This document shows, piece by piece, positions 3,910 to 36,348 of a stretch of 64,000 nt of DNA. The notes beneath the pieces are model-generated. The model made no database searches and had not been told where the DNA came from. It worked only from the letters and a program-made list of their open reading frames with translations. The DNA is taken from positions 1-64,000 of the IMG/VR virus record IMGVR_UViG_3300009155_000044; one strand, written 5' to 3'. Made by a program: the position numbers and the translations under genes. How positions within the stretch are numbered: the stretch's first letter is position 1; every line of letters starts with the position of its first letter. The DNA comes from a virus.

Positions 3910-3982
3910 GGGGATGTAACTCAGCTGGTAGAGTGGTAGCTTTGCAAGCTATTTGTCTGGGGTTCGAATCCCCACTTCTCCA
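3910..3982 (+). tRNA. tRNA-Ala(TGC)
   Basis: Cloverleaf GGGGATG...CTTCTCC A with G3-U70; anticodon loop TT TGC AA; T loop TTCGAAT. Confidence 0.9.
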
Positions 3983-3989
3983 CTCATTT

Positions 3990-4061
3990 GCCTTCGTAGC
4001 TTAATGGTGAAGCGCCTCATTTGTAATGAGGATATTGCGGGTTCAAGTCCTGCCGAAGGCC
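3990..4061 (+). tRNA. tRNA-Thr(TGT)
   Basis: GCCTTCG/CGAAGGC acceptor; CCTCA TT TGT AA TGAGG anticodon arm. Confidence 0.92.
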
Positions 4062-4083
4062 CACTTTTTTAATATTTTATTTC

Positions 4084-4171
4084 GGGTAGATGCCAGAGAG
4101 GCCAAATGGAGCAGACTGTAAATCTGTTAGCGTAATCGCTTTCGTAGGTTCAAATCCTACTCTACCCACCA
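4084..4171 (+). tRNA. tRNA-Tyr(GTA)
   Basis: GGGTAGA/TCTACCC ACCA; GCAGA CT GTA AA TCTGT; long variable arm. Confidence 0.93.
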
Positions 4172-4247
4172 ATTTTTATGTTTACTTTTTTTTTATGTAG
4201 TTTATTATTTTGTCTAGGATTTTTAGTTTATTCATTACTCACAATCA

Positions 4248-4838
4248 ATGAATAAATTTTCTCCTAATTTTAAAGTTTTTCATAGTTGGGCTTGTAAATA
4301 TGCTCGCAAGCACAATAAAAAAATAGACATTCGACCAACATTTTATGTTCGCAATGGCGGGAATTGTTTGGGATATTGCGATGGAGACACAATGGTTGTG
4401 GCTAGAAAAGATGAGCTTTTCGAGGATACTTTTGTTCATGAATTTTCTCATTTGATGCAAGCAGTTAATAGAATCCCTTTATGGAGAGATGGTCATGATG
4501 ATTCTTTTTATTGTGATTTAAAATCTAAATCAGTCTCTATGAATAGTTGGAGTTCTTTTTGGCAAATTTTAACTATTGAACATGATTGCGAATTTCGTGC
4601 AATTAAATTGGTCAAACGGTGGAATCTGGGATGTGATAAAAAATACGCTCAAAGAGCAAATGCTCATTTGTATTATTTATGCTATCTATTTATTAATAAT
4701 AGTGAAATTCCATATGATCAATCATTTCCAGACATCACTGACAAAATGCCAAAAACTCTTTGTAGTTTGCAGTCTTTTAAAAAGATAGATATGAACATCA
4801 TGGAATTCATTTTTGAAAAATGCAATCCTATTCAGTAA
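4248..4838 (+). CDS. hypothetical protein with HExxH motif (putative metallopeptidase)
   Basis: FVHEFSHLMQ motif; ORF lies inside the tRNA cluster. Confidence 0.6.
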   Translation: MNKFSPNFKVFHSWACKYARKHNKKIDIRPTFYVRNGGNCLGYCDGDTMVVARKDELFEDTFVHEFSHLMQAVNRIPLWRDGHDDSFYCDLKSKSVSMNSWSSFWQILTIEHDCEFRAIKLVKRWNLGCDKKYAQRANAHLYYLCYLFINNSEIPYDQSFPDITDKMPKTLCSLQSFKKIDMNIMEFIFEKCNPIQ

Positions 4839-4882
4839 TATATCTATATGGCTCTTCCAAAACCTAAAAACCATCTAAACAT

Positions 4883-4957
4883 TCCCATGTAGCTCAACGG
4901 CAGAGCGATTCCCTGTTAAGGAATAAGTTGTAGGTTCGAATCCTACTGTGGGAGCCA
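4883..4957 (+). tRNA. tRNA-Asn(GTT)
   Basis: TCCCATG/TGTGGGA GCCA; ATTCC CT GTT AA GGAAT. Confidence 0.92.
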
Positions 4958-4967
4958 CTTTAATAAC

Positions 4968-5041
4968 AGGCTTATAGCTCAATTGGCAGAGTGTGGTTCT
5001 CCAAAAACCATGGGTTGTAGGTTCGAATCCTGCTAAGCCTG
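4968..5041 (+). tRNA. tRNA-Trp(CCA)
   Basis: AGGCTTA/TAAGCCT G; TGGTT CT CCA AA AACCA. Confidence 0.92.
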
Positions 5042-5057
5042 CAATTTTTATAATAAT

Positions 5058-5252
5058 ATGATTGATACAAGCGATTTCACCTCTCTACAATCTGATCAAA
5101 ATCTCATTAAAAAACTAATGAATCTCTCCATTGAGAGTGAATCAGATCAAAAAACCCTCTATTTCATTTTGAAGAATGATAAATTCTCTCAAGCTCAAAG
5201 AGACTGGATGAATACTTTACTCTTTAGAAAAGGAAGTTCTTTCTCACTTTGA
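5058..5252 (+). CDS. hypothetical protein
   Basis: ORF track, 64 aa. Confidence 0.5.
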   Translation: MIDTSDFTSLQSDQNLIKKLMNLSIESESDQKTLYFILKNDKFSQAQRDWMNTLLFRKGSSFSL

Positions 5253-5313
5253 TTTTAAATAATTTTTGATACTAATGAGTAGTTATTATCAAGAAAACAA
5301 AACAACAACACAT

Positions 5314-5802
5314 ATGAAAAACACAATTAAAGCAATCGTATTTGCCCTCGTTTCCTCTATTTCTGCATTGCAAGCAGGAGAGCCGCCTCTTCCACAAGTT
5401 GTAGCTTATGAACCAAGCGTGAAAGTTAATGCATTTGCAGCATCTCTTTTGAATGAAGATGCTGATGCAACTTATGGTGGCGGAGTTTCCATTGAAACTT
5501 TGAGCATCGATAGTGTAGGCTTACGAGCATCTCTTCTCGCTCTTGAAGATGAGACATTTACACTTGGTTTGAGCGCTCTTTACACAGTGCCAGTTAGCCA
5601 AACCTTTGGAATTTATAGTTTAGCAGGAGTAGACTATGAAGTTGATCAAGCATTTTGGAGCGCTTCTCTTGGTGGTGGAGTTACTGTGGCTCTCTCTCAG
5701 CGAGTCGATTTGTTCGTTGAAACTTCTTACAGCTTTGCTCTGGATACAGACAACAAGGACAAAGCTTGGGGAGTATCTGCTGGCGTAGGAGTTAAGTTCT
5801 AA
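5314..5802 (+). CDS. outer-membrane beta-barrel protein (OmpA/porin-like) with signal peptide
   Basis: Signal peptide MKNTIKAIVFALVSSISALQA; alternating beta strands; C-terminal GVGVKF (terminal Phe typical of OMPs). Confidence 0.75.
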   Translation: MKNTIKAIVFALVSSISALQAGEPPLPQVVAYEPSVKVNAFAASLLNEDADATYGGGVSIETLSIDSVGLRASLLALEDETFTLGLSALYTVPVSQTFGIYSLAGVDYEVDQAFWSASLGGGVTVALSQRVDLFVETSYSFALDTDNKDKAWGVSAGVGVKF

Positions 5803-5807
5803 TTTAA

Positions 5808-5895
5808 GATGGGATGGCTGAGAGGTTTAAAGTAGCGCTTTGCTAAAGCGCCGTAGCCTTAAAAGCTACCGAGAGTTCGAATCTCTCTCTCATCG
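5808..5895 (+). tRNA. tRNA-Ser(GCT)
   Basis: GATGGGA/TCTCATC G; GCGCT TT GCT AA AGCGC; long variable arm. Confidence 0.9.
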
Positions 5896-5901
5896 CTCTT
5901 T

Positions 5902-5975
5902 GCGGGTATAGCTTAGTGGTAAAGTCCTAGTTTTCCAAACTAGCTATGCGGGTTCAATTCCCGCTGCCCGCTCCA
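5902..5975 (+). tRNA. tRNA-Gly(TCC)
   Basis: GCGGGTA/TGCCCGC TCCA; CTAGT TT TCC AA ACTAG. Confidence 0.93.
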
Positions 5976-5976
5976 A

Positions 5977-6050
5977 AGACTCATAGCTCAGCTGGTTAGA
6001 GCATCGCTTTGATAAAGCGAAGGTCATTGGTTCAAGTCCAATTGAGTCTA
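5977..6050 (+). tRNA. tRNA-Ile(GAT)
   Basis: AGACTCA/TGAGTCT A; TCGCT TT GAT AA AGCGA. Confidence 0.92.
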
Positions 6051-6056
6051 CTTTTA

Positions 6057-6141
6057 GGATGTGTGGTCGAGCGGTCTAAGTCAGCAGACTTGAAATCTGC
6101 CGTAGCGAGAGCTACCGAGAGTTCGAATCTCTCCGCATCCG
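6057..6141 (+). tRNA. tRNA-Ser(TGA)
   Basis: GGATGTG/CGCATCC G; GCAGA CT TGA AA TCTGC; long variable arm. Confidence 0.92.
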
Positions 6142-13296: not shown

Positions 13297-13434
13297 TAAA
13301 ATTAAAAAATCATTAATCTTAAATACGATTGAAGAATTTTGAAAAAACGTTGACAAGGAAACTCTTCCATGGTAATGTTCAACATAATAAAAATTGCATC
13401 AACAAAACAAAATACAAACCAACAAAACAAAACA

Positions 13435-14394
13435 ATGATTGAATCCCTTACTCCAGAACAAACTGCCAAAATGCCAGAATACACTAAAAAGTGGCTTGCA
13501 ATTGGCATTAACACTGATCGTCTTGACTACGATGAAACTGTGAGCATCATTCACAAAGTGCAAACTAATTTGCTCAAAACTGAGACTACTCCAGTTATTA
13601 TTGTTAATAATCCAGTAGAAGCTTGGGTTGCTTGTCACTTCCTTAAAGCTGGTGTTGAAGTGAAAGATGTTCCTGCGAAAGTTGAAGAATACTTTGTCAA
13701 AGGACTTAAAATGGAGATTGAGACTTATACCACTCCGTATCTCAACGGATCGTTCGACGCGAACGTTTGGAGCTTCTACGACTTCTTCAAAGATGAAGTA
13801 GGAATTGACTTCAAAGAAGCGAGTGAGAATTATGCTATCTGGCATTCGACTCATAAGCTTGGGCAGATTTATCCAATGCCGACGGCAGTGGTTGTGAGTC
13901 AAAAGCCTACTGTGATTCACCTCAATGAAGACAATGTGACTCACTGTGACGGTGGTCCAGCCATTGCTTACGATGGTTATGGACTAAACAGTATCTTCAT
14001 CCTCAACGGAACGAGAGTTCCTGAGTGGTTGGCAGTTACTCCAAGCAATGAACTCACTCTTGATCAGTACAATACTCTGGACAATGCAGACCACAAAATG
14101 GAGTTTGTTCGTAAATTCGGAGTTGAAAGAATGCTCTCTTTTGGCAAGAAGATTGACTCTTACGAAAACTATCCTGATCAAGAGTGGTGGACTAAGAGTG
14201 AGTATGAACTTTGGGACATGGCCGCTTTGTACTCAGGCATTGATTATGCTCCTCACCTGAAGATGCTTAATCAAACTGTTGGAGTGTGGCATGTCGAAAG
14301 TGTCTCTCCAGAGTGTAAGAATCTTAAACAGGCTATTGCAGAACGACTTGGAGGCATTGACTTATCAGATCATGAAATTGTGGGCATCGCTTAA
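13435..14394 (+). CDS. DUF6745-like phage protein
   Basis: LTPEQ...Y..KWLAIG N-terminus; W.FYDFF, VSQKPT.IH.....HC.GGPAI.Y.G, NG.RVP motifs (family recalled, not searched). Confidence 0.75.
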   Translation: MIESLTPEQTAKMPEYTKKWLAIGINTDRLDYDETVSIIHKVQTNLLKTETTPVIIVNNPVEAWVACHFLKAGVEVKDVPAKVEEYFVKGLKMEIETYTTPYLNGSFDANVWSFYDFFKDEVGIDFKEASENYAIWHSTHKLGQIYPMPTAVVVSQKPTVIHLNEDNVTHCDGGPAIAYDGYGLNSIFILNGTRVPEWLAVTPSNELTLDQYNTLDNADHKMEFVRKFGVERMLSFGKKIDSYENYPDQEWWTKSEYELWDMAALYSGIDYAPHLKMLNQTVGVWHVESVSPECKNLKQAIAERLGGIDLSDHEIVGIA

Positions 14395-14427: not shown

Positions 14428-14787
14428 ATGAAAAAGAAAATCACCAATATTAAAAAGAAAATTATTCTTCACGGCGAATGCATTGTGGCTCAGTGCTCTA
14501 GTCTTCCTGATGATGTCATTGCAGAGAGTCATGCAACTTCATCCGTTATCGTGGCTAATAGCGAAGTCACTGGAAATCATCACGTTATTGCTAATAAGCC
14601 TGGAGTTGTTTTTTATAACTCCAAGACTACTGGCAAGCGCTACATGAATAGCTCTGTTCCTACTAATATTAGTTGTGTAATGGCTGAGCGTCACACTACC
14701 ATTGACATTGTGCCTGGCACTTATGTAATTGGCATTCAACAAGAATACGATTACATCGCTCAAGCTAAGCGAAATGTAGCTGATTAA
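14428..14787 (+). CDS. small beta-barrel/cupin-like partner of DUF6745-like proteins
   Basis: HGE, SEVTGNHH, H..I....G.Y.I..QQEY......RNVAD motifs. Confidence 0.75.
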   Translation: MKKKITNIKKKIILHGECIVAQCSSLPDDVIAESHATSSVIVANSEVTGNHHVIANKPGVVFYNSKTTGKRYMNSSVPTNISCVMAERHTTIDIVPGTYVIGIQQEYDYIAQAKRNVAD

Positions 14788-14819
14788 TTAATTTCTAGGG
14801 AATTCTGTAGGGAATTTAA

Positions 14820-14855
14820 AGGCTCTCTGAAATACAACTTCAGAGAGCCTTTTTA
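14820..14855 (+). terminator. intrinsic terminator
   Basis: GGCTCTCTGAA ATACAAC TTCAGAGAGCC followed by TTTTT. Confidence 0.75.
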
Positions 14856-15061
14856 TTATAATAAAATGAATAACAACGATGTGGAAAATCTTTAAATTCT
14901 TCTAATCTTGAAGTTCGGAGGAATGTAGGATTTAAAATATGGATGTTGACAGATTATGCTGTATGGAATAATGACTCTTTTTATAATATGAGTATCATTA
15001 TAAAAAGACCTGTAGCAGATTCTGTAAGAGATCACTTCAAATAAAAATTAATAATAAAGCA

Positions 15062-15241
15062 ATGAACAATTTTAATATTCGTAAAGCTGTATGGGATTCT
15101 GTATGGGATTCTGTAGGATGTTTAGTATGGGATTCTGCATGGGATTCTATATGGAGTTCTGTATATAATTCTGTAGAGAGTTCTGTAGGAAGTTCTGTAC
15201 AAGCTTCTACAAAAGATTACTTTCAAAACGACCTCCGCTGA
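15062..15241 (+). CDS. SVxx-repeat mini-protein 1 (59 aa)
   Basis: Hand translation MNNFNIRKAVWDSV...KDYFQNDLR. Confidence 0.7.
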   Translation: MNNFNIRKAVWDSVWDSVGCLVWDSAWDSIWSSVYNSVESSVGSSVQASTKDYFQNDLR

Positions 15242-15250
15242 AATAAAGCA

Positions 15251-15490
15251 ATGAATGACATTAGCGTCTATAAAGCTGTATGGGATTCTGTAGAGGATTC
15301 TGTAGAGGACTCTGTAAGTAATTCTGTATCGAATTCTGTATGGAATTCTGTATCGAATTCTATAGCAGTTTCTGTAGCGGTTTCTGTAAGGAGTTATGTA
15401 AGGGATCTTGTAGAAGATTCTGTATGGAATTCTGTATTGGATTCTGTAGAGGATTCTACAAAAGATTACTTTCAAAACAAACTCCGCTAA
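15251..15490 (+). CDS. SVxx-repeat mini-protein 2
   Basis: ORF track. Confidence 0.75.
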   Translation: MNDISVYKAVWDSVEDSVEDSVSNSVSNSVWNSVSNSIAVSVAVSVRSYVRDLVEDSVWNSVLDSVEDSTKDYFQNKLR

Positions 15491-15499
15491 AATAAAGCA

Positions 15500-15724
15500 A
15501 TGAACAGTACTATCATTCGTAAAGCTGTATGGAATTCTGTAAAGGATTCTGTAAAGGATTCTGTAGAGGATCCTATATGGGTTTTTGTAGAGGTTTCTGT
15601 ATCGCGTTCTATAAGGATTTCTGTAGAGGCTTCTATATCGCGTTCTGTAGAGGTTTCTGTATCGCGTTCTGTAGAGTTTGATTCTGTAAGGAGTTCTGTA
15701 AGGGATCACTTCGAACAAAAATGA
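15500..15724 (+). CDS. SVxx-repeat mini-protein 3
   Basis: ORF track. Confidence 0.75.
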   Translation: MNSTIIRKAVWNSVKDSVKDSVEDPIWVFVEVSVSRSIRISVEASISRSVEVSVSRSVEFDSVRSSVRDHFEQK

Positions 15725-15930
15725 TTATGAACGACTCCACTATTCGTGAAGCTGCAAGCATAGGTAGTTCTATATGCACTTCTATAGAGAATGACGCATG
15801 GCATTCTATAATTAATGCTGTAGACGATTCTATATGGGAGCTTGTAATGAATTCTCTATTAGATTCTGGATGGGAGTCTATAAGGGATTTTGTAGGAAGT
15901 TCTGTAGGGGAATACTTCGAACAAAAATAA
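15721..15930 (+). CDS. SVxx-repeat mini-protein 4 (diverged)
   Basis: ORF track. Confidence 0.75.
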   Translation: MIMNDSTIREAASIGSSICTSIENDAWHSIINAVDDSIWELVMNSLLDSGWESIRDFVGSSVGEYFEQK

Positions 15931-15932
15931 TT

Positions 15933-16124
15933 ATGAATAAAATTAATGATTCTGTAGAGGGATCTGCAAGGGATTCTGTAAGGAGTTATGTAAGGAGGTC
16001 TGTAGAGGTTTCTGTATGGGATTCTGTAGCGAGTTCTGTAGCGAGTTCTGTAGCGAGTTCTGCATGGAGTTCTGTAGGGGATTCTGTAGATGATTCTGCA
16101 AGAGATTACTTCGAACAAAAATAA
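15933..16124 (+). CDS. SVxx-repeat mini-protein 5
   Basis: TAATTATG start; the track extends it spuriously upstream. Confidence 0.75.
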   Translation: MNKINDSVEGSARDSVRSYVRRSVEVSVWDSVASSVASSVASSAWSSVGDSVDDSARDYFEQK

Positions 16125-16130
16125 ATAATT

Positions 16131-16346
16131 ATGAATAAAATTAATAAATCTGTATGGAATTCTGTAGGGGATTCTGTAGGTAATTCTGTATGGAATTCTG
16201 TAAGTAATTCTGTATGGAATTCTGTAGGGGATTCTGTATGGCATTCTTTAATGAGTTCTGTAAGGAGTTCTGTAGGGGATTTTGTATTGGCTTCTATAAG
16301 AACTTCTATAGCAGATTCTGCAAGAGATTATTTTGAACAAAATTAA
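16131..16346 (+). CDS. SVxx-repeat mini-protein 6
   Basis: ORF track. Confidence 0.75.
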   Translation: MNKINKSVWNSVGDSVGNSVWNSVSNSVWNSVGDSVWHSLMSSVRSSVGDFVLASIRTSIADSARDYFEQN

Positions 16347-16584
16347 TATCAATAAAATTAATGACAATATGTGGAATTTAATGTGGAATTCTCCTAGAAC
16401 TTCTATAATAGAGTTTGTCGCGAATCCTATATATAATATTATATCACATTCTGTCGAGGATGATCTACGTTATTCTATAAGGATTTCTGTAGGGGATTCT
16501 GTAAGAGATTCTACAAGAGATTCTATAGGAGATTCTATAGAAGATTCTGTAAGAGATTATTTCAAACAAAATAATTATGAATAA
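16333..16584 (+). CDS. SVxx-repeat mini-protein 7 (diverged; start uncertain)
   Basis: ORF track. Confidence 0.6.
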   Translation: MNKININKINDNMWNLMWNSPRTSIIEFVANPIYNIISHSVEDDLRYSIRISVGDSVRDSTRDSIGDSIEDSVRDYFKQNNYE

Positions 16585-16864
16585 AATTAATGATTCTGTA
16601 GAGGGATCTGTAAGGAGTTCTGTAAGGGATTCTGTATGGAGTTCTGTATGGAATTCTGTAAATCATTCTGTATGGAGTTCTGTAGTGAGTTCTGTAGGTA
16701 ATTCTGTATGGAATTCTGTATATAATTCTGTAGGGAGTTCTGTAGTGAGTTCTGTTCGCGTAAGTCGTTCAAAATCAATGAGTTACGCAGTAGGGAGTTC
16801 TGTAGATGATTCTGTAGAGGATTTTGTCGTAGGTTTTGTAATCGATTACTTCGAACAAAAATAA
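16577..16864 (+). CDS. SVxx-repeat mini-protein 8
   Basis: ORF track. Confidence 0.75.
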   Translation: MNKINDSVEGSVRSSVRDSVWSSVWNSVNHSVWSSVVSSVGNSVWNSVYNSVGSSVVSSVRVSRSKSMSYAVGSSVDDSVEDFVVGFVIDYFEQK

Positions 16865-16870
16865 ATAATT

Positions 16871-17059
16871 ATGAATAAAATTAATGATTCTGTAGAGGGA
16901 TCTGTAAGGAGTTCTGTAAGGGATTCTGTAGGGAGTTCTGTATGGGTTTCTGTATGGGTTTCTGTAGCGAGTTCTGTATGGCATTCTGTAAAGGGTTCTG
17001 TAAGGAGTTCTGTCGGAGATTCTGCAAGAGATTATTTCGATTATTTCAAACAAAAATAA
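16871..17059 (+). CDS. SVxx-repeat mini-protein 9
   Basis: ORF track. Confidence 0.75.
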   Translation: MNKINDSVEGSVRSSVRDSVGSSVWVSVWVSVASSVWHSVKGSVRSSVGDSARDYFDYFKQK

Positions 17060-17061
17060 TT

Positions 17062-17238
17062 ATGAATGATGAAATTAATTATACTGAGATATTTAATATT
17101 AGAAGCTTTATAGGTTCTTTTATAAGCAATTCTGTAGAAATATCTGTATGGAGCGATATATGGGATACTATAGTGCATCCTATGAAAGATTCTGTACGGC
17201 GTTCTATACGCGATTTTGTAGATGATTACTTCGAATAA
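17062..17238 (+). CDS. SVxx-repeat mini-protein 10 (diverged)
   Basis: TAATTATG start, ends DDYFE. Confidence 0.7.
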   Translation: MNDEINYTEIFNIRSFIGSFISNSVEISVWSDIWDTIVHPMKDSVRRSIRDFVDDYFE

Positions 17239-17312
17239 AATCAACGATTAACTATTCAGCAAAATTCCCCGAAAACCTCTTGACTTCCATATCGATTGAA
17301 GTATGCTCAATC

Positions 17313-17807
17313 ATGCTCAAAATTCAAACTATTAAAATGCCTCAATTATCTTGCGAATTAGAAGAATTTCTTTCTGCAACAGATCAAGACTTGAATCTCG
17401 CCCAAGAAGTTTCTAATTGGACGCTTAAGAGGAGTGAAGGAATTTATTCTGACGGGGAATTTGCTTATTATTCAGTAATTATGGAAATTCCCATCAGAGG
17501 CATTATAGATCGCACTATGCATAAACCAGTTTGGATTCGATCTACTGTGAAGATGCATTCTGGTGGACGTTGGGAACCTGATGAGTATGATGAAGTTTTA
17601 GTAGATGCAGGCCAAGTTTTTTTATCTTTAGCGGATGCTGTGAAACAATCAAAACTAGATAACTATGAGAAAGAACTGATGGAAATAAACAACTCTTGCT
17701 CAATTTGTGATGGTTCTGGAATGGAAGATTATTTTGCAGAAATTTCTTGCAAAGCTTGTTTGGGCGCAGGTCATCATTTTTTCATTAAACCGCAAAAAAA
17801 TAAATAA
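17313..17807 (+). CDS. hypothetical protein with C-terminal CxxC...CxxC Zn-finger, inserted in the array
   Basis: CSICDGSG...CKACLGAG; own promoter TTGACT-N16-TATGCT at 17280-17307. Confidence 0.7.
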   Translation: MLKIQTIKMPQLSCELEEFLSATDQDLNLAQEVSNWTLKRSEGIYSDGEFAYYSVIMEIPIRGIIDRTMHKPVWIRSTVKMHSGGRWEPDEYDEVLVDAGQVFLSLADAVKQSKLDNYEKELMEINNSCSICDGSGMEDYFAEISCKACLGAGHHFFIKPQKNK

Positions 17808-17812
17808 CTTAT

Positions 17813-17884
17813 ATGAGATAATTAAAATTTAAAGTATATATTCCTGATTATGAGAAATCAAAAGATTACTTCCAACAAAAATAA
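17813..17884 (+). pseudogene. chimeric relic: YopX 5' end (CAA->TAA at codon 3) fused to a mini-ORF tail KDYFQQK
   Basis: ATGAGATAATTAAAATTTAAAGTATATATTCCTGAT matches 21499 ATGAGACAATTAAAATTTAGGGTATATATTCCTGAT. Confidence 0.75.
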
Positions 17885-17886
17885 TT

Positions 17887-18114
17887 ATGAATAAAATTGA
17901 AAATTCTACAAGGTATTCTGTAAGGGCTTCTGTAAGGGCTTCTGTAAGGGTTTCTGTAAGCAATTATGTAAGGGATTCTGCAAGGGATTCTGTAAGGGAT
18001 TCTGTATGGGATTCTGTGTGGGTTTCTGTGGGGGTTTCTGTGGGGGTTTCTGTGGGGAGTTCTGTATGGAATTCGGTAGGGGATTACTTTTCAAAACGAA
18101 CTCCACTAAAATAA
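17887..18114 (+). CDS. SVxx-repeat mini-protein 11
   Basis: ORF track. Confidence 0.75.
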   Translation: MNKIENSTRYSVRASVRASVRVSVSNYVRDSARDSVRDSVWDSVWVSVGVSVGVSVGSSVWNSVGDYFSKRTPLK

Positions 18115-18118
18115 AGGA

Positions 18119-18352
18119 ATGAACAACTTTAACATTCGTAATTCTGTAAGGAATTCTGTATGGGATTCTGTAGCGGGTTCCATATGGGATTCTGTAGGGG
18201 ATTCTGTATGGGATTCTACAAGGAGTTTTGTAAGTTATGCTGTATGGGATTCTGTAAGGGATTCTGTAAGGGATTCTGTATGGAATTCTGTAGAGGATCC
18301 TGTGTGGGATTCTGTGTGGAGTTCTGTAGAGAATTATTTCCAACAAAAATAA
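18119..18352 (+). CDS. SVxx-repeat mini-protein 12
   Basis: ORF track. Confidence 0.75.
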   Translation: MNNFNIRNSVRNSVWDSVAGSIWDSVGDSVWDSTRSFVSYAVWDSVRDSVRDSVWNSVEDPVWDSVWSSVENYFQQK

Positions 18353-18354
18353 TT

Positions 18355-18522
18355 ATGAATAAAATTAACGTTGCTGTAAGGAATTCTGTATGGAGTTCTG
18401 TATGGAGTTCTGTAGGGTTTTCTGTAAGGTGGTCTGTAGGGGATTCTGTAGGGGATTCTGTAGGGAGTTCTGTAAGGGATTCTGTATTGATTTCTGTAGA
18501 GAATTATTTCCAACAAAAATAA
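18355..18522 (+). CDS. SVxx-repeat mini-protein 13
   Basis: TAATTATG start. Confidence 0.75.
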   Translation: MNKINVAVRNSVWSSVWSSVGFSVRWSVGDSVGDSVGSSVRDSVLISVENYFQQK

Positions 18523-18524
18523 TT

Positions 18525-18752
18525 ATGAATAAAATTGAAAATTCTGTAAGGGATTCTGTAAGGGATTCTGTATGGAGTTCTGTAAGGTGGTCTGTAGGGG
18601 ATTCTGTAGGGGATTCTGTAGCGAGTTCTGTGGGGCGTTCTGTAAGAGATTCTGTATGGTGGTCTGTAATGAATCCTGTAGCAGATTCTGTAGGGAGTTC
18701 TGTAAGCGATTCTGTATGGAGTTCTGTAGAGAATTATTTCAAACAAAAATAA
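18525..18752 (+). CDS. SVxx-repeat mini-protein 14
   Basis: TAATTATG start. Confidence 0.75.
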   Translation: MNKIENSVRDSVRDSVWSSVRWSVGDSVGDSVASSVGRSVRDSVWWSVMNPVADSVGSSVSDSVWSSVENYFKQK

Positions 18753-18754
18753 TT

Positions 18755-18952
18755 ATGAATAAAATTAACGTTGCTGTAAGGAATTCTGTATGGGATTCTG
18801 TAGCGAGTTCTGTAAGGGTTTCTGTAAGGTGGTCTGTATGGAATTCTGTAGGGGATTCTGTAGGGAGTTCTGTATGGGATTCTGTAGGGCGTTTTGTAAG
18901 TGATTCTATCAAAGATTCTGTTAAAGATTACTTCAATAAAATAAAACAATGA
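18755..18952 (+). CDS. SVxx-repeat mini-protein 15
   Basis: TAATTATG start. Confidence 0.75.
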   Translation: MNKINVAVRNSVWDSVASSVRVSVRWSVWNSVGDSVGSSVWDSVGRFVSDSIKDSVKDYFNKIKQ

Positions 18953-19095
18953 CCTATTTTAACATTCGTAAAGCTGTAGTGAATTCTGTAGGGAGTTCTG
19001 TAGGGAGTTCTGTAGGAGACATTTCAGAACAAAAAGTAGACGTTTGGCTTCTTCGTTACTTTCGCCAATTAATAATTAATAATAATGAAAACTGA
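18949..19095 (+). CDS. SVxx-repeat mini-protein 16 (short, altered C-terminus)
   Basis: Hand translation MTYFNIRKAVVNSVGSSVGSSVGDISEQK... Confidence 0.5.
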   Translation: MTYFNIRKAVVNSVGSSVGSSVGDISEQKVDVWLLRYFRQLIINNNEN

Positions 19096-19366
19096 CACAC
19101 TAAATATTAGATATAATAGAATAAGAAAAGAGTGGTGCGTAAGCTATAAAAGATCTGATATTGAGCGCATTGATCATGTACCTAGACCATGTCACATGGG
19201 ATTCTATCACTTCCATCGAAAAATTGGACCAAAAAAAGCTTTTGCTGAACTCAAAAAGTTTTTGATAGACGAAACAAATAAAGAAATTTTATCGCTTCAA
19301 GAATATATAAATGAAATGAATGCTCTACAATTGCCCGATTGGATTACTAATAAAAAAAAGAACTGA
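19085..19366 (+). CDS. hypothetical protein inserted in the array
   Basis: ORF track; followed by a headless repeat remnant at 19364-19445. Confidence 0.65.
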   Translation: MKTDTLNIRYNRIRKEWCVSYKRSDIERIDHVPRPCHMGFYHFHRKIGPKKAFAELKKFLIDETNKEILSLQEYINEMNALQLPDWITNKKKN

Positions 19367-19441
19367 TTCTGTAGTGAGTTCTGTAGTGAGTTCTGTAGAG
19401 CGTTCTGTAGAGGATTCTGTAAAAGATTACTTTCAAATAAA

Positions 19442-19687
19442 ATGAACTTGAATAAAATTAGCAATACTGTAAGGGCTTCTGTAGTGAATTCTGTATGTGA
19501 TTCTGTAGGGAGTTCTGCATGGAATTCTGTAAATCATTCTGTATGGAGTTCTGTAGTGAGTTCTGTAGGGGATTCTGTATGGCATTCTGTATGGCATTCT
19601 GTATGGCATTCTGTATGGCATTCTGTAGGGGATTCTATATTGCGCTCTGTAGAGGATTCTGTAAAAGATTACTTTCAAATAAAATGA
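19442..19687 (+). CDS. SVxx-repeat mini-protein 17
   Basis: ORF track. Confidence 0.75.
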   Translation: MNLNKISNTVRASVVNSVCDSVGSSAWNSVNHSVWSSVVSSVGDSVWHSVWHSVWHSVWHSVGDSILRSVEDSVKDYFQIK

Positions 19688-19965
19688 ACTTGAATAAAAT
19701 TAACGATGCTGTAAGTAATTCTGTATGGAATTCTGTATGGAATTCTGTAAGTAATTCTGTATGGAATTCTGTATGGAATTCTGTAAGGGGTTCTGTATGG
19801 GGTTCTGTAGGACGTTCTATAAAGAGTTCTGTAAGAGTTGATGTAGGACGTTCTATAAAGAGTTCTGTAAGAGTTGATGTAGGACGTTTTATAAAGAGTT
19901 CTGTAAGAGTTGATGTAAGGGATTCTGTAGAGAGTTCTGTAAAAGATTGCTTTCAAATAAAATGA
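19684..19965 (+). CDS. SVxx-repeat mini-protein 18
   Basis: ATGA overlap start MNLNKINDAV. Confidence 0.75.
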   Translation: MNLNKINDAVSNSVWNSVWNSVSNSVWNSVWNSVRGSVWGSVGRSIKSSVRVDVGRSIKSSVRVDVGRFIKSSVRVDVRDSVESSVKDCFQIK

Positions 19966-20300
19966 ACTTGAATAAAATTAGCAATACTATAAGGGTTTCT
20001 GTAGATGATTCTGCATGGGCTTCTGTAGCGAGTTCTGTGGGGCGTTCTGTAAGAGATTCTGTATGGTGGTCTGTAATGAATCCTGTAAATGATTCTGTAA
20101 GTAATTCTGTAAGTAATTTTGTATGGAATTCTGTATATAATTCTATAGCAGTTTCTGTAGGGCGTTCTGTAGGGGATTCTGTAGGGGATTCTGTATGGCA
20201 TTCTGTAGGGGATTCTATATTGCGCTCTGTAGGGGATTCTGTATGGGATTTTGTACAGGCTTCTGTAAGGGATTATTTTAAACAAAATGATTATGAATAA
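19962..20300 (+). CDS. SVxx-repeat mini-protein 19
   Basis: ATGA overlap start MNLNKISNTI. Confidence 0.75.
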   Translation: MNLNKISNTIRVSVDDSAWASVASSVGRSVRDSVWWSVMNPVNDSVSNSVSNFVWNSVYNSIAVSVGRSVGDSVGDSVWHSVGDSILRSVGDSVWDFVQASVRDYFKQNDYE

Positions 20301-20496
20301 AATTAACGATGCTGTAAGTAATTCTGTAAGGAATTCTGTAAGGAATTCTGTATGGAGTTTTGTATGGAGTTCTGTAAGGGATTCTGTAAGGTGGTCTGTA
20401 TGGAATTCTGTAGGGGATTCTGTAGCAGATTCTGTATGGGATTCTGTAGGGAGTTCTGTAGGGGATTCTGCAAGAGATTATTTCAAACAAAAATAA
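20293..20496 (+). CDS. SVxx-repeat mini-protein 20
   Basis: ORF track. Confidence 0.75.
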   Translation: MNKINDAVSNSVRNSVRNSVWSFVWSSVRDSVRWSVWNSVGDSVADSVWDSVGSSVGDSARDYFKQK

Positions 20497-20498
20497 TT

Positions 20499-20738
20499 AT
20501 GAATAAAATTAACGATTCTGTAAGGGATTCTGTAAGGTGGTCTGTATGGAATTCTGTAGGGGATTCTGTAGCAGATTCTGTATGGGATTCTGTAGCGAGT
20601 TCTGTAGAGGATTCTGTAGAGGATTCTGTATGGAATTCTGTATGGAATTCTGTATTGAGTTCTGTATGGGATTCTGTAAGGAATTCTGTAGGGGATTCTG
20701 TAAGAGATTCTGCAAGAGATTATTTCAAACAAAAATAA
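20499..20738 (+). CDS. SVxx-repeat mini-protein 21
   Basis: TAATTATG start. Confidence 0.75.
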   Translation: MNKINDSVRDSVRWSVWNSVGDSVADSVWDSVASSVEDSVEDSVWNSVWNSVLSSVWDSVRNSVGDSVRDSARDYFKQK

Positions 20739-20740
20739 TT

Positions 20741-20932
20741 ATGAATAAAATTAACGATGCTATAAGGAAGTCTATATTGAGTTCTGTATGGAATTCTGTA
20801 GGGAATTCTATAGGGAATTCTGTAGGGAGTTCTGTAAGGAGTTTTGTAAGGGATTCTGTAGAGGATTCTGTATTGGCTTCTATAAGAACTTCTATAGCAG
20901 ATTCTGTAAGAGATTATTTCAAACAAAAATAA
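20741..20932 (+). CDS. SVxx-repeat mini-protein 22
   Basis: TAATTATG start. Confidence 0.75.
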   Translation: MNKINDAIRKSILSSVWNSVGNSIGNSVGSSVRSFVRDSVEDSVLASIRTSIADSVRDYFKQK

Positions 20933-20934
20933 TT

Positions 20935-21177
20935 ATGAATAAAATTAATGATTCTGTAGAGGGATCTGTAAGGAGTTTTGTAAGGAGTTCTGTAGGGAGT
21001 TCTGTAGGGAGTTCTGCATGGGATTCTGTATGGATTTCTGTAGCGAGTTCTGTATGGGTTTCTGTAAGGGTTTCTGTAGGGGATTCTGTATTGGATTCTG
21101 TATGGGATTCTGTAGGGAGTTCTGTATGGCATTCTGTAAGGAATTCTGTAAGGGATTACTTCGCAAATGAACTCTAA
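20935..21177 (+). CDS. SVxx-repeat mini-protein 23
   Basis: TAATTATG start. Confidence 0.75.
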   Translation: MNKINDSVEGSVRSFVRSSVGSSVGSSAWDSVWISVASSVWVSVRVSVGDSVLDSVWDSVGSSVWHSVRNSVRDYFANEL

Positions 21178-21189
21178 TAAAATAAAGCA

Positions 21190-21273
21190 ATGAATAACTC
21201 TGATATTCGTAATTCTGTAAGGAATTCTGTAAGGGGTTCTGTATGGGATTCTGTAAAAAATTACTTCGAATAA
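21190..21273 (+). CDS. SVxx-repeat mini-protein 24 (27 aa)
   Basis: Hand translation MNNSDIRNSVRNSVRGSVWDSVKNYFE. Confidence 0.55.
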   Translation: MNNSDIRNSVRNSVRGSVWDSVKNYFE

Positions 21274-21498: not shown

Positions 21499-21870
21499 AT
21501 GAGACAATTAAAATTTAGGGTATATATTCCTGATCATCAGAAGTTTTGTTACTTTTGGTTAAATAATTTTGATTACTCTGATCGTTACTTACATCAATAT
21601 TTGCATCCCGTCCAACAATGGACAGGATTGACAGATTCAAAAGGCGTTGAAATTTACGAGGGAGACATTGTTAAAACTATTTATGAAAATGATCCTGATT
21701 TTAATATTGGAACTATTATTTATGATGTTTTAACTGGAGCTTATAGAATTAAAGCTTTAAAAAATTTATTGCCTATTATAACTTATAGATTTGTAGATGG
21801 CAAACCACAAGAATTATTACAAGTAGTTAATGAAGTTATTGGAAATGAGCACGAATTACCTTTAAATTAA
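21499..21870 (+). CDS. YopX family protein
   Basis: MRQLKFR...QQWTGLTDSKGVEIYEGDIV...VIGN. Confidence 0.9.
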   Translation: MRQLKFRVYIPDHQKFCYFWLNNFDYSDRYLHQYLHPVQQWTGLTDSKGVEIYEGDIVKTIYENDPDFNIGTIIYDVLTGAYRIKALKNLLPIITYRFVDGKPQELLQVVNEVIGNEHELPLN

Positions 21871-23543: not shown

Positions 23544-23619
23544 GAATAAGTAGCTCAGTTGGTAGAGCAATTGGCTTTTAACCAGTCGGTCCTGGGTTCA
23601 AGTCCCAGCTTATTCACCA
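23544..23619 (+). tRNA. tRNA-Lys(TTT)
   Basis: GAATAAG/CTTATTC ACCA; ATTGG CT TTT AA CCAGT. Confidence 0.93.
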
Positions 23620-23628
23620 AATAATTTT

Positions 23629-23700
23629 TGCAGAGTGGAGCAGTGGTAGCTCAGCAGGCTCATAACCTGATGGTCGTTGGTTCGAATCCAACCTCTGCAA
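23629..23700 (+). tRNA. tRNA-Met(CAT), initiator-like D arm
   Basis: TGCAGAG/CTCTGCA A; GGAGCAG.GGTAGCTC D arm; CAGG CT CAT AA CCTG. Confidence 0.88.
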
Positions 23701-23705
23701 CGAAT

Positions 23706-23779
23706 AGACGTATAGCTCAGTTGGTTAGAGCACAAAACTCATAATTTTATGGTCCTGGGTTCGAGTCCCAGTGCGTCTA
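23706..23779 (+). tRNA. tRNA with CAT anticodon (elongator Met or lysidine Ile2)
   Basis: AGACGTA/TGCGTCT A; AAAA CT CAT AA TTTT. Confidence 0.88.
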
Positions 23780-23873
23780 CTAAATTACGAAAAACATTTT
23801 GCCAAATAAGAAAAAACTCATTGACATTATTCGAGACTCCTATATTATAAGCATATAGAATATTACTTTTAAT

Positions 23874-23959
23874 GGGGATGTGGTGAAATGGCAACCACAA
23901 CAGACTTAAAATCTGTCGCCCGTAAAGGCTTGAGGGTTCGAGTCCCTCCATCCCCACCA
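23874..23959 (+). tRNA. tRNA-Leu(TAA)
   Basis: GGGGATG/CATCCCC ACCA; ACAGA CT TAA AA TCTGT; long variable arm. Confidence 0.93.
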
Positions 23960-34642: not shown

Positions 34643-34655
34643 GAGCTACAGGTGT
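34618..34655 (-). pseudogene. 38-nt tRNA minihelix (acceptor + T arm; D loop and anticodon arm deleted)
   Basis: Minus strand ACACCTG TAGCTC ATGGG TTCGATC CCCAG CAGGTGT A. Confidence 0.65.
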
Positions 34656-34893
34656 AAAGTGTTTATTCCAGCCGAAAAGCTTTTTTTCGCAAGCTCTCAT
34701 CAACTTGCTTTTCCAGCCATGACTTTTGTTCAAAAACTTTTGAACCATAAACTGGATTGGACTGTGCGGCAGTGAACCACTGCTCCATTTGCTTGTCGCT
34801 TGGAAACAGAATTTGCTGAAGGAAGTAGAAGATTTTTTTCATAGTAGTATAGTGGAGATTTAAAATGACAGGTTTTGCGCGAGAGTCAAGAAA

Positions 34894-35166
34894 TTATTCT
34901 TCATCGTAATTTTCTTCATTCTCTTCTTCATCCACTTCTGATTCGATGAGATCAATCAAGTCATCAAAAGTGGGACCGTTGCGAAATGCTGCTTCATATC
35001 CCTTGCCCATTCCGACAGAGGCAGACAGCGCTCCAAGGAACTCTGGACACAAGAATCGTCTCTGATCATCTGGGAATGATTGCAGCATGTGTTCGATGCT
35101 ATTAACAATTTCGCCAATCTGATTAGCGCTGTCACTAATCTGCTCCAGCATTTCTTTTTTATTCAT
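34894..35166 (-). CDS. hypothetical acidic protein
   Basis: ORF track; start reassigned to MNKKEM. Confidence 0.6.
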   Translation of the reverse strand: MNKKEMLEQISDSANQIGEIVNSIEHMLQSFPDDQRRFLCPEFLGALSASVGMGKGYEAAFRNGPTFDDLIDLIESEVDEEENEENYDEE

Positions 35167-35249
35167 GATGTTAATGGGTTGGAATGTTGTTGAACCGTCC
35201 AGAATGATACCACAGGTTTGAAGGACTGCAACTTTTATTTTCAATTAAA

Positions 35250-35447
35250 TTATTCGTTCAGCGCTGTGAAACAGCGGGATCCAATCAGGTCGTCAACATA
35301 ATCTGGTTCCAGCAGAAATTCGTGCGCGAGAATGCGCTCTGGAGACTCACCATCCCACACGCGAGCGCGAGCCTCATTAACACATTGGCGAGCTTCATCA
35401 GGGAGAACTCCATCGCGGCGAATAATAATTTCTTCTATAATGTTCAT
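35250..35447 (-). CDS. hypothetical protein (RRDG...EA...LEPDY..DL motif)
   Basis: ORF with TTGACA...TACTAT promoter immediately upstream. Confidence 0.7.
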   Translation of the reverse strand: MNIIEEIIIRRDGVLPDEARQCVNEARARVWDGESPERILAHEFLLEPDYVDDLIGSRCFTALNE

Positions 35448-35486
35448 GAGGCTATAGTAATGCGATGAAAGATCTTGTCAAGAGAG

Positions 35487-35573
35487 AGTTGCAAGCGAGT
35501 GAGTTGCAAATAGAGGAGTTGCAAATAGCGAAGTTGCAAATAGCGAAGTTGCAAATAGCGAAGTTGCAAATAG
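35487..35573 (+). repeat. iteron-like tandem repeat, period 15 bp, core AGTTGCAAATAG
   Basis: Cores at 35502, 35517, 35532, 35547, 35562; variant at 35487. Confidence 0.85.
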
Positions 35574-35613
35574 CAGTGTGTTAAATAGGAGTAGCAAAAA
35601 AATACAAAGCAAT

Positions 35614-35785: not shown

Positions 35786-35799
35786 CAAGTTTGATTGAT

Positions 35800-36334: not shown

Positions 36335-36348
36335 CGAGTTTGCTAGTG

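What the first reader, a model, noticed from the sequence alone, without database searches (positions are those of the whole stretch)
14988..21273. Array of 24 hypervariable Ser-Val-x-x mini-proteins with fixed N- and C-caps
Seen in sequence: 24 co-directional ORFs of 27-112 aa. Most begin MNKIN(D/E/V), MNLNKI or MNNFNIR, continue as a variable number of tetrapeptide units S-V-x-x (x1 mostly W/R/G/E/A/V, x2 mostly D/N/S/H/V), and end (R/K)DYFxQK. They are linked by TAATTATG, AATAAAGCAATG or ATGA overlaps, i.e. arranged for coupled translation. No two are identical, and nearly all keep frame and both caps even though slippage on a 12-bp unit could scramble them. Inference: a phage-encoded combinatorial library of small repeat proteins (candidate roles: decoys or inhibitors of host defence sensors, variable binding partners, or a self-assembling polymer). 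I know of no described system of this form.
Basis: partly seen in the sequence, partly recalled or inferred. Interest (0 to 1): 0.92.

Follow-up and report, generated by a model that had tools for sequence, protein, structure and literature searches.

The report
Detached DUF6745 tetrapeptide-repeat mini-gene array
An uncultured freshwater phage carries 24 tiny tandem genes, each a free-standing, fast-changing copy of a four-amino-acid repeat (Ser-Val-x-x) that over a thousand other phage proteins, mostly DUF6745, carry as an internal tract; the nearest studied protein of this build tunes escape from a bacterial defence, but what these genes do is not known.

Summary
Window 15062-21273 (+) holds 25 ORF pieces, which make 24 mini-genes of 27-112 aa. 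They are built from 339 copies of a 12-nt unit, TCT GTA xGG yzT (S-V-x1-x2), with MN... starts and (D/N)YF... ends.

The S-V frame is the coding frame. The same dipeptide repeat is written with four different codon pairs in four lineages, and only this frame stays open in all relatives.

The repeat is not an orphan. 1308 longer proteins match a mini-protein, and most of the top 120 carry PF20530 (DUF6745), with the tract sitting between an N- and a C-domain. This phage's own DUF6745 (13432-14394) lacks the tract. It lies directly upstream of the array, together with a conserved partner gene (phrog_27831). Three other phage records (G002, G003, G005) show the same three-part layout.

Variation sits at first and second codon positions of x1/x2, while silent sites are frozen. 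That fits slippage and recombination plus selection, not a retroelement. AF2 predicts one long helix.

The function is inferred only. The closest studied analogue is mycobacteriophage Tweety gp54, a tetrapeptide-repeat protein whose repeat number tunes counter-defence.

This scan has already found the same arrangement in at least 7 other genomes, and I found no paper that describes it. I class it as a new variant of a known kind, of moderately high interest.

The parts
13432..14394 (+). Repeat-less DUF6745 gene. The ORF is open from 13369; relatives start at MIESLT, which is 13432.
   Evidence: PF20530 at 27.4 bits against a cut-off of 27; phrog_31813. It is 35% identical to the C-domain of repeat-bearing P0001, starting at SFYDFF. 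Orthologues of 318-319 aa sit at the same place in G002 and G003.
14428..14787 (+). Conserved partner gene (phrog_27831, 119 aa)
   Evidence: phrog_27831 E 3.7e-4 here and 1.3e-17 in G005. A homologue follows DUF6745 in L106 and L107, and a gene of like size (112-124 aa) follows it in G002, G003, G005, L114 and L115.
14818..14852 (+). Intrinsic terminator between the DUF6745 pair and the array
   Evidence: 14-bp stem with 6 GC pairs and a T run (sequence).
14943..15044 (+). Decayed mini-gene remnant (ends ..PVADSVRDHFK)
15062..15241 (+). mini-gene 1, 59 aa
15251..15490 (+). mini-gene 2, 79 aa
15500..15724 (+). mini-gene 3, 74 aa
15727..15930 (+). mini-gene 4, 67 aa, with a degenerate repeat. 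The first 54 codons are nearly identical to a G001 copy, but the tail is swapped.
15933..16124 (+). mini-gene 5, 63 aa
16131..16346 (+). mini-gene 6, 71 aa
16333..16584 (+). mini-gene 7, up to 83 aa. The cap ATG is lost (TTG or an internal ATG would have to serve), so it may be decaying.
16577..16864 (+). mini-gene 8, 95 aa
16871..17059 (+). mini-gene 9, 62 aa
17062..17238 (+). mini-gene 10, 58 aa, degenerate
17313..17807 (+). Unrelated ORF that interrupts the array (164-175 aa, C-terminal CxxCxGxG zinc-finger-like motif)
   Evidence: Weak DnaJ_CXXCXGXG match, E 0.009.
17887..18114 (+). mini-gene 11, 75 aa
18119..18352 (+). mini-gene 12, 77 aa
18355..18522 (+). mini-gene 13, 55 aa
18525..18752 (+). 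mini-gene 14, 75 aa
18755..18952 (+). mini-gene 15, 65 aa
18949..19095 (+). mini-gene 16, N-half (cap plus 3 units, then unrelated tail), split by an insertion
19085..19366 (+). 93-aa ORF of unknown function inserted into mini-gene 16. The same insertion is present in G001.
19367..19445 (+). mini-gene 16, C-half (..DSVVSSVVSSVERSVEDSVKDYFQIK). One 12-nt unit is absent in run X4.
19442..19687 (+). mini-gene 17, 81 aa
19684..19965 (+). mini-gene 18, 93 aa
19962..20300 (+). mini-gene 19, 112 aa
20293..20496 (+). mini-gene 20, 67 aa
20499..20738 (+). mini-gene 21, 79 aa. This was the query for the homology searches and for AF2.
20741..20932 (+). mini-gene 22, 63 aa
20935..21177 (+). mini-gene 23, 80 aa
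21190..21273 (+). mini-gene 24, 27 aa, the shortest

Best explanation
The region is a protein-coding, polycistronic + strand array of 24 paralogous mini-genes. Each encodes a short N-cap (MN...), 4-25 tetrapeptide units S-V-x1-x2 and a C-cap ((D/N)YF...). These are detached, free-standing copies of the inter-domain tetrapeptide tract that most DUF6745 (PF20530) phage and prophage early-region proteins carry internally. In this phage the DUF6745 gene has no tract. It sits with its conserved partner (phrog_27831) directly upstream of the array, so the three parts look like one accessory module.

The array changes in three ways: 12-nt slippage changes unit number, unequal or mosaic recombination between copies changes gene number and produces chimeras, and point changes are kept almost only at x1/x2. 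The result is a set of different long helical surfaces.

Inferred, not shown: the products are single long alpha-helices. By analogy with Tweety gp54, they act in phage-host conflict (counter-defence or another host-protein interaction), either alone or together with the repeat-less DUF6745 and partner pair. I put about 0.85 on the identity and coding part, and about 0.3 on the counter-defence part; the confidence given for the whole statement is a compromise between the two.
For: Coding frame. S-V is encoded by TCT GTA here, AGC GTT in L106/P0112, TCG GTC in L107/P0084 and TCG GTG in L108/P0100. The antisense frames carry stops in the relatives; in L085, 0 of 14 genes are open in the codon-aligned antisense frame. 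The DYF cap shows synonymous TAC/TAT and TTC/TTT variation. The AT-rich start contexts without a Shine-Dalgarno sequence match those of the phage's other genes.

Homology. 1308 longer proteins match mini-gene 21 at E down to 5e-52, and most of the top 120 carry PF20530. Their architecture is N-domain, tract, then C-domain. The mini C-cap matches the residues just after the tract in those proteins (RDYQSF, NEYSSY).

Module. A repeat-less DUF6745 of 318-341 aa, then a phrog_27831 gene, then an array, is found in the window, G002, G003 and G005. G005 has different caps (MES...SILEE).

Conservation. Arrays with intact ATG, stop and caps occur in G001 (at least 18 genes), G002 (10), G003 (21, strongly diverged) and L021. 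In alignment A2, F76 is invariant and M1 and Y75 are at least 90% conserved.

Dynamics. The arrays are not colinear even though the flank is 79% identical. One copy is a mosaic. Run X4 lacks one 12-nt unit and joins array parts in another order. Entropy is 1.4-1.7 bits at unit nt 7, 8, 10 and 11, against 0.65-0.77 at nt 3, 6 and 12. The array uses codons that are rare in this phage, namely GTA, GGG and AGG.

Structure. AF2 with A2 gives one helix, residues 2-78, pLDDT 88.

Context and analogue. DUF6745 genes lie in phage early or accessory regions with NinB, NinG, VapE, an S24 repressor and DnaB. Tweety gp54 has 48 A-A-x-x units, frozen silent sites, and escape mutants that change repeat number (PMC2884959, PMC9262239).
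Against: There is no expression data. No function is known for DUF6745 or phrog_27831, and no solved fold matches DUF6745 (best Z 4.7). Tweety gp54 is not detectably homologous: it is phrog_3416, has no Pfam match, and hhalign gives probability 0.1. So the counter-defence role rests on likeness of build only. Two other repeat-less DUF6745-plus-partner loci (L114, L115) have no array within 7-10 kb, so the core does not always need mini-genes nearby. In the full-length model the tract is helical but has low confidence, pLDDT 35-70. A 4.0-residue period gives no fixed hydrophobic face on an ordinary alpha-helix, so the true assembly state is unclear. Gene count and order rest on a short-read assembly.
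Confidence: 0.6

Rival explanations
1. Split-protein model. The mini-proteins are exchangeable inserts that bind in trans to the repeat-less DUF6745 protein (with or without the phrog_27831 partner). This would restore the tract that other phages have in cis, so that one core can carry many alternative helices. It is a more specific version of the best explanation.
For: The tract is missing from exactly those DUF6745 genes that sit next to arrays, in 4 of 4 records. The mini caps resemble the residues that flank the tract in cis forms. Earlier notes of this scan report docking models in other genomes; these are leads, not tested here.
Against: L114 and L115 have the repeat-less pair without an array within the fetched flanks.
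Confidence: 0.25
2. Selfish or neutral expansion. The array is run-away satellite-like amplification of a slippery gene fragment. It stays open only because the unit has no stop codon in that frame and because the caps are copied along with it. The products would have no function.
For: Codon use is extremely uniform and relies on rare codons. Turnover is fast and the arrays are not colinear. There are a decayed copy, a copy without its ATG and a split copy. Repeat-less DUF6745 loci exist without arrays.
Against: Paralogues have diverged to a median of 43% identity, yet 22 of 24 keep ATG, both caps and the stop. G003's 21 strongly diverged copies are all intact, and only this frame is always open. 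The arrangement recurs in lineages with different caps and a different DUF6745 sequence. It takes up about 5% of a size-limited phage genome.
Confidence: 0.12
3. The true reading is on the minus strand, as (I/T)-P-Y-R repeats, or both strands code. On the codon-aligned antisense frame the commonest variants (TGG/AGG/GGG, GAT/AAT, GTA/ATA) are silent Pro, Ile and Tyr third-position changes.
For: The variation pattern inside the unit. The antisense frame is open in 17 of 25 window genes.
Against: In other lineages S-V is kept while the antisense reading changes completely: N-A in L106, H-R in L108. The antisense frame has stops in every gene of L085 and in most genes of G003. There are no ATG starts on the minus strand, and the ORF borders there depend on a silent TAT/TAC choice. 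All flanking genes and the terminator are on the + strand.
Confidence: 0.02
4. Targeted hypermutation (a diversity-generating retroelement), or a RiPP-type library of precursor peptides processed by a phage enzyme.
For: Variation is confined to a few unit positions. There are many small tandem genes with a conserved leader-like N-cap and a variable body.
Against: The 120-kb genome has no reverse transcriptase and no radical SAM enzyme. The A at unit position 6 is nearly invariant, which is unlike adenine mutagenesis. The same repeat is an internal part of ordinary 300-600 aa proteins.
Confidence: 0.03

Closest known systems
Internal tetrapeptide tract of DUF6745 (Pfam PF20530, phrog_31813) phage and prophage proteins, e.g. 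P0001, P0071, P0112
   Same: Same S-V-x-x unit, with 53-74% identity over whole mini-proteins. Same hypervariable x1/x2 with frozen silent sites. Same phage early-region setting and the same downstream phrog_27831 partner.
   Different: In those proteins the tract has 25-60 units inside one 350-600 aa protein, between an N- and a C-domain. Here it stands alone as 24 separate genes with 6-10-residue caps, and the neighbouring DUF6745 has no tract. The function of the family is unknown.
Mycobacteriophage Tweety gp54 (also Che8 gp57, PMC gp51), the 'tetrapeptide repeat protein' (PMC2884959; PMC9262239, citing Dedrick et al. 2017)
   Same: A 12-nt unit encoding two invariant small residues plus two variable ones (A-A-[G/W/Q]-[S/Y]). 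Third codon positions are invariant while positions 7, 8, 10 and 11 vary. Unit number differs between relatives (48, 26, 15). The gene is a non-essential early gene. This is the only protein of this build with a tested role: defence-escape mutants against Phrann gp29/gp30 change the repeat number.
   Different: No detectable sequence homology: phrog_3416, no Pfam match, hhalign probability 0.1 against the DUF6745 alignment. The units are A-A rather than S-V. It is one gene with sizeable end domains whose spacing is thought to matter, and the mini-proteins have no end domains to space.
VR2 of Bordetella phage BMP-1 gene bbp36 (as cited in PMC2884959)
   Same: A variable-number in-frame short repeat in a non-essential phage gene.
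   Different: It is a 24-bp element in a single gene, and I did not examine it here.
Other free-standing S-V-x-x mini-proteins in metagenomes (P0135-P0157)
   Same: Small proteins (52-74 aa) made of the same units. P0141 has the same caps as the window's genes.
   Different: Most have other caps (for example ..IKLKSYDF). Only 37 were found against 1308 long forms, and I did not examine their genomic arrangement.

Membership tests
DUF6745 (PF20530) proteins, tested on the mini-proteins | C-terminal DUF6745 domain | tested here: not met
   No Pfam match for five mini-proteins. They end 1-7 residues after the (D/N)YF cap.
DUF6745 (PF20530) proteins, tested on the mini-proteins | Homology to the family's inter-domain S-V-x-x tract | tested here: met
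   1308 longer hits at E down to 5e-52, most of the top 120 with PF20530. The alignments run through the whole tract.
DUF6745 (PF20530) proteins, tested on the upstream gene 13432-14394 | Pfam score over the curated cut-off | tested here: met
   27.4 bits against a cut-off of 27. 35% identity over 210 aa to P0001. 2864 related clusters.
DUF6745 (PF20530) proteins, tested on the upstream gene 13432-14394 | Internal tetrapeptide tract (common in the family but not part of the Pfam model) | tested here: not met
   No S-V-x-x run in the sequence. N- and C-domains are joined by about 45 non-repeat residues. Orthologues in G002 and G003 are the same.
Tweety gp54-type tetrapeptide-repeat counter-defence proteins | 12-nt unit with two fixed and two variable residues; silent positions fixed | tested here: met
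   compared with PMC2884959 section 16
Tweety gp54-type tetrapeptide-repeat counter-defence proteins | Unique N- and C-terminal domains flanking the repeat | tested here: not met
   The mini-proteins have only short caps. gp54 has about 140 aa before and 45 aa after the repeat.
Tweety gp54-type tetrapeptide-repeat counter-defence proteins | Sequence homology to gp54 | tested here: not met
   gp54 is phrog_3416 and has no Pfam family. hhalign against the DUF6745 alignment gives probability 0.1.
Tweety gp54-type tetrapeptide-repeat counter-defence proteins | Counter-defence activity tuned by repeat number | not testable with these tools
   This needs a host and a defence system; the phage is uncultured.
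Diversity-generating retroelement target | Reverse transcriptase and adenine-specific variation | tested here: not met
   No RVT_1 in the 120-kb record. The unit-position-6 A is nearly invariant.
RiPP precursor arrays | A nearby modifying enzyme (only radical SAM was tested) | tested here: not met
   No Radical_SAM match in the genome. Other enzyme classes were not searched.

The most novel reading that the evidence does not exclude
The DUF6745 core, its phrog_27831 partner and the 24 mini-genes form a modular counter-defence machine. The constant core takes any one of a library of exchangeable, fast-evolving helical inserts supplied in trans. A single phage would then carry many specificities at once, where other phages must tune one internal tract by slippage as Tweety gp54 does.
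Probability: 0.15. Interest if true: 0.85.

Novelty: new variant of a known kind. Interest (0 to 1): 0.62.

Why it matters
Tetrapeptide-repeat tracts are among the fastest-changing parts of phage accessory proteins. The one studied case, Tweety gp54, shows that repeat number can switch a counter-defence on. This locus shows that the tract can exist without the domains it was thought merely to space apart, and that it can be multiplied into two dozen diversified genes. That argues the tract itself is an active, probably binding, element.

The locus gives a compact test system: one core gene, one partner and a natural library of inserts. It bears on a protein family of about 2900 sequence clusters that has no assigned function.

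It is also a clean example of silent sites frozen while coding sites vary, which can mislead frame calling. The antisense frame looks as if it were under purifying selection.

Tried and rejected
- Antisense (YRIP) or dual coding. I took this seriously because unit variation is silent on the antisense frame. Cross-lineage codon comparison and antisense stops rejected it.
- Pfam, PHROGs and PADLOC on the mini-proteins gave nothing meaningful. The weak PADLOC hits of the long forms fall in the repeat and look compositional.
- A megablast of the locus against GenBank phages found no match.
- The first 'near' protein search found nothing. A second found only 37 short proteins.
- Literature searches for DUF6745 and for the repeat strings returned 0 papers.
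- Fold searches with the DUF6745 model: Foldseek gave nothing at E <= 0.001, and VIA-align's best Z was 4.7, to toxin-immunity proteins, which is not significant. ESM Atlas returned only 'hypothetical protein' clusters from viruses.
- Complex prediction with four copies of mini-gene 21 gave no verdict (score 0.01). This says nothing either way.
- RNA evidence: no RNA holder is listed among the public runs, so expression and strand could not be checked.
- DGR and RiPP readings: no reverse transcriptase and no radical SAM enzyme.
- DNA mimicry: net charge ranges from -9 to +7 across copies, so a uniform acidic DNA mimic is unlikely.
- Freshwater 'TLP-4' glycofibrils with tetrapeptide-repeat cores (bioRxiv 10.1101/2025.09.30.679562) need a conserved dihydroxyproline. 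These units lack Pro, so I dropped this.
- dN/dS on the one clear orthologous pair was uninformative. 54 codons are nearly identical and the tail has been swapped by recombination.
- The primary paper on gp54 counter-defence (Dedrick 2017) is not held. I cite it through the review PMC9262239.

Full report
**1. What is there**

The window is the first 64 kb of a single 120,073-bp IMG/VR virus record, about 93% complete. It is a tailed phage:
- a tape-measure gene from 61895;
- a 1479-aa terminase-like ORF with extra inserts;
- an endolysin-like domain;
- 13 tRNAs.

Its genes generally lack Shine-Dalgarno sequences. Only 8 of 78 long ORFs have one, and AT-rich leaders are the rule. Public runs that hold the stretch are freshwater metagenomes.

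Between 15062 and 21273, all on the + strand, lie 25 ORF pieces of 27-112 aa. They are built from 339 copies of a 12-nt unit, T C T G T A N n G N N T. This reads Ser-Val-x1-x2, with x1 mostly W, R or G and x2 mostly D, S or N.
- 24 of the 25 start with ATG in an MN... cap.
- 23 end in (D/N/E)(Y/H)F followed by 1-7 residues.
- The junctions are tight: a 2-nt spacer nine times, an ATGA overlap four times, and others of 4-12 nt or short overlaps.
- No two products are identical. The highest pairwise identity is 70% and the median 43%.

Signs of wear:
- a decayed copy at 14943-15044;
- a copy whose cap ATG is lost (16333);
- a copy split by an inserted 93-aa ORF (19085-19366), an insertion also present in relative G001;
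- an unrelated 164-175-aa ORF with a CxxCxGxG motif, which separates blocks 1 and 2.

**2. Which frame codes**

Four of the six frames are largely open inside the repeat, so the frame had to be argued.

One result pointed the other way. Variation is concentrated at first and second codon positions of x1 and x2 (entropy 1.4-1.7 bits), while third positions are nearly fixed (0.65-0.77 bits). TCT makes up 253 of 256 Ser codons, GTA 245 of 264 Val codons, and GAT 103 of 104 Asp codons. On the codon-aligned antisense frame the unit reads (I/T)-P-Y-R, and the commonest variants are silent there. That looks like purifying selection on the minus strand.

Other lineages settle the question. The same S-V-x-x repeat is written with different codon pairs:

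| Lineage | Codons for S-V | Note |
|---|---|---|
| This window | TCT GTA | |
| L106 / P0112 | AGC GTT | 25 of 25 units, in a 56%-GC prophage-like contig |
| L107 / P0084 | TCG GTC | |
| L108 / P0100 | TCG GTG | |

- S-V is conserved across these lineages, while the antisense reading changes completely.
- In relatives the antisense frame carries stops. In L085, 0 of 14 genes are open; in G003, 9 of 21.
- The DYF cap shows silent TAC/TAT and TTC/TTT variation.
- All starts are ATG on the + strand, whereas the minus strand offers only incidental TTGs.
- All neighbouring genes, and the strong terminator at 14818-14852, are on the + strand.

The S-V frame is therefore the coding frame. The uniformity of codons within each array, with different codons between arrays, is the signature of concerted evolution by slippage and recombination.

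The array also uses codons that are rare in this phage: GTA 23%, GGG 5% and AGG 6% genome-wide. Codon choice therefore reflects repeat ancestry (the NGG neighbours of TGG) and not translational optimisation.

**3. What the repeat belongs to**

The mini-proteins hit no Pfam or PHROG family. A search restricted to longer proteins found 1308 hits (E down to 5e-52, 53-74% identity), and most of the best 120 carry PF20530, DUF6745.

Those proteins have three parts:
- an N-domain of about 75 aa;
- 25-60 S-V-x-x units;
- a C-terminal domain that begins ..W(L/I)AFYDYF.

A second, smaller architecture (P0100, P0008, L096) places the same tract between other domains.

The gene contexts are phage or prophage early regions, with NinB, NinG, VapE, an S24 repressor and DnaB.

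The mini C-cap (RDYF.QK) matches the residues that directly follow the tract in the long proteins (RDYQSF, NEYSSY). The N-cap resembles the residues before it. A mini-gene thus looks like an excised tract with its immediate flanks.

Only 37 short proteins were found in the same database. Some have other caps, and one has the same caps.

**4. The locus as a module**

The gene at 13432-14394 is a DUF6745 protein. It scores 27.4 bits against a cut-off of 27 and is 35% identical to P0001's C-domain. It has no tract. It is followed by a 119-aa gene of phrog_27831, then the terminator, then the array.

The same order (a tract-less DUF6745 of 318-324 aa, a phrog_27831 gene, then mini-genes) occurs in three other records:
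- G002, whose flank is 79% identical in nucleotides and whose array has about 10 genes;
- G003, a complete 173-kb phage with 21 more diverged mini-genes;
- G005, a distant DUF6745 with mini-genes carrying different caps, MES...SILEE.

G001 and G004 are cut by contig ends at their arrays.

The partner gene also follows tract-bearing DUF6745 genes, so DUF6745 plus phrog_27831 is the constant pair.

The link to arrays is not obligatory. Two other tract-less pairs, L114 and L115, have no tetrapeptide mini-genes within 7-10 kb. The DUF6745 family is large, at 2864 clusters with E <= 1e-3, and many of its close members are tract-less.

**5. Dynamics**

- The arrays of the window, G001 and G002 are not colinear, although their flanks are.
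- One copy is a mosaic: 54 codons are nearly identical to a G001 copy, and the tail is different.
- Contigs from another freshwater sample (X4) lack one 12-nt unit at 19367 and join array parts in a different order. Mapping inside repeats is error-prone, so this is weak evidence.
- The phage has no reverse transcriptase and no radical SAM enzyme. The A at unit position 6 is fixed, which argues against a diversity-generating retroelement.

The pattern of frozen silent sites and varying x1/x2 was reported for Tweety gp54 in 2007 and read there as selection for variation (PMC2884959).

**6. Structure**

- AF2 with a 65-sequence alignment predicts mini-gene 21 as one helix, residues 2-78, pLDDT 88.
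- In a full-length DUF6745 model (P0112, pLDDT 79) the end domains are confident, while the tract is helical at pLDDT 35-70.
- No solved fold matches DUF6745.
- A 4.0-residue period makes the Val stripe wind around an ordinary alpha-helix, about one turn per 36 residues. That follows from helix geometry and is my inference. How the helices bury Val and Trp is therefore open.
- My one complex job, on four copies, gave no verdict.

**7. Function**

Nothing here shows function. The closest studied protein of this build is Tweety gp54.
- It has a unique N-domain, 40-48 A-A-x-x units and a C-domain.
- The authors propose that the spacing of the end domains tunes it (PMC9262239, citing Dedrick et al. 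2017, which is not held here).
- gp54 is not detectably homologous to DUF6745 or to the mini-proteins, so this is an analogy and not membership.

Because the mini-proteins have no end domains to space, the tract must do something in its own right if they are functional. The most economical reading is a variable helical binding surface used in phage-host conflict, either alone or on the DUF6745 and partner core. I put about 0.3 on a counter-defence role, about 0.25 on trans-docking to the core, and about 0.12 on functionless expansion.

**8. Novelty**

Earlier notes of this scan describe the same 'detached DUF6745 repeat mini-genes' in at least seven other genomes, with other unit types (QVxD, xSAV, xNQV). 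They also pointed me to gp54. I checked the homology, codon, synteny and literature parts myself. I did not test their docking claim.

I found no paper on DUF6745 or on such arrays. I class the finding as a new variant of a known kind: a known kind of phage tetrapeptide-repeat tract in a new, detached, multi-gene form. With 24 genes, this window holds one of the larger arrays noted so far.

Noticed in passing
window 27000-39000: A block with clearly higher G+C (0.42-0.50, against about 0.33 elsewhere). It is made of short minus-strand ORFs, several of which match PHROGs of unknown function (phrog_11575, phrog_586, phrog_1617). Reading TAG or TGA as sense does not merge them. It looks like a module of foreign origin on the opposite strand.
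   Followed up: partly
whole genome (G000), e.g. window 7718, 9913, 43994, 50862: Long ORFs almost never have a Shine-Dalgarno sequence (8 of 78). They have AT-rich leaders instead, as is typical of phages of Bacteroidota-like hosts. The host was not identified.
   Followed up: partly
window 43994-48433: A 1479-aa ORF combines terminase-large-subunit matches (residues 945-1367) with helicase-like and ribonucleotide-reductase-like matches. This suggests a terminase carrying inteins or fused domains.
   Followed up: no
window 3910-6141 and 23544-23959: Two tRNA clusters with 13 genes. Five of them (Trp-CCA, Ser-TGA, Ser-GCT, Gly-TCC, Asn-GTT) by standard codon-anticodon pairing (my inference, not tested) read codons that are abundant in the array. 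There is no tRNA for Val GTA, Asp GAT or Arg AGG. This may be coincidence.
   Followed up: partly
window 19085-19366 and L104 about 1650-1900: A 93-aa ORF of unknown function sits inside a mini-gene and splits it. The same insertion is conserved in relative G001, so it is old and may be a small mobile gene.
   Followed up: partly
window 14428-14787: In the ESM Atlas the phrog_27831 partner's predicted structure aligns to part of a DUF6745 cluster model (TM 0.68 by query, 99 residues). The partner may resemble a sub-domain of DUF6745, or may be fused to it in some phages.
   Followed up: no
P0100, P0008, P0126, P0138, P0139; L096:5884-6432: A second protein family carries the same S-V-x-x tract between an N-domain (MC..FS...DSH..) and a short C-domain (..SFDG..WRLH.G..A). 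It has no Pfam family, and in the one locus examined (P0100, L108) it lies in a phage early region.
   Followed up: partly
window 21499-21870: A YopX-family gene (PF09643, phrog_98) lies directly downstream of the array.
   Followed up: no
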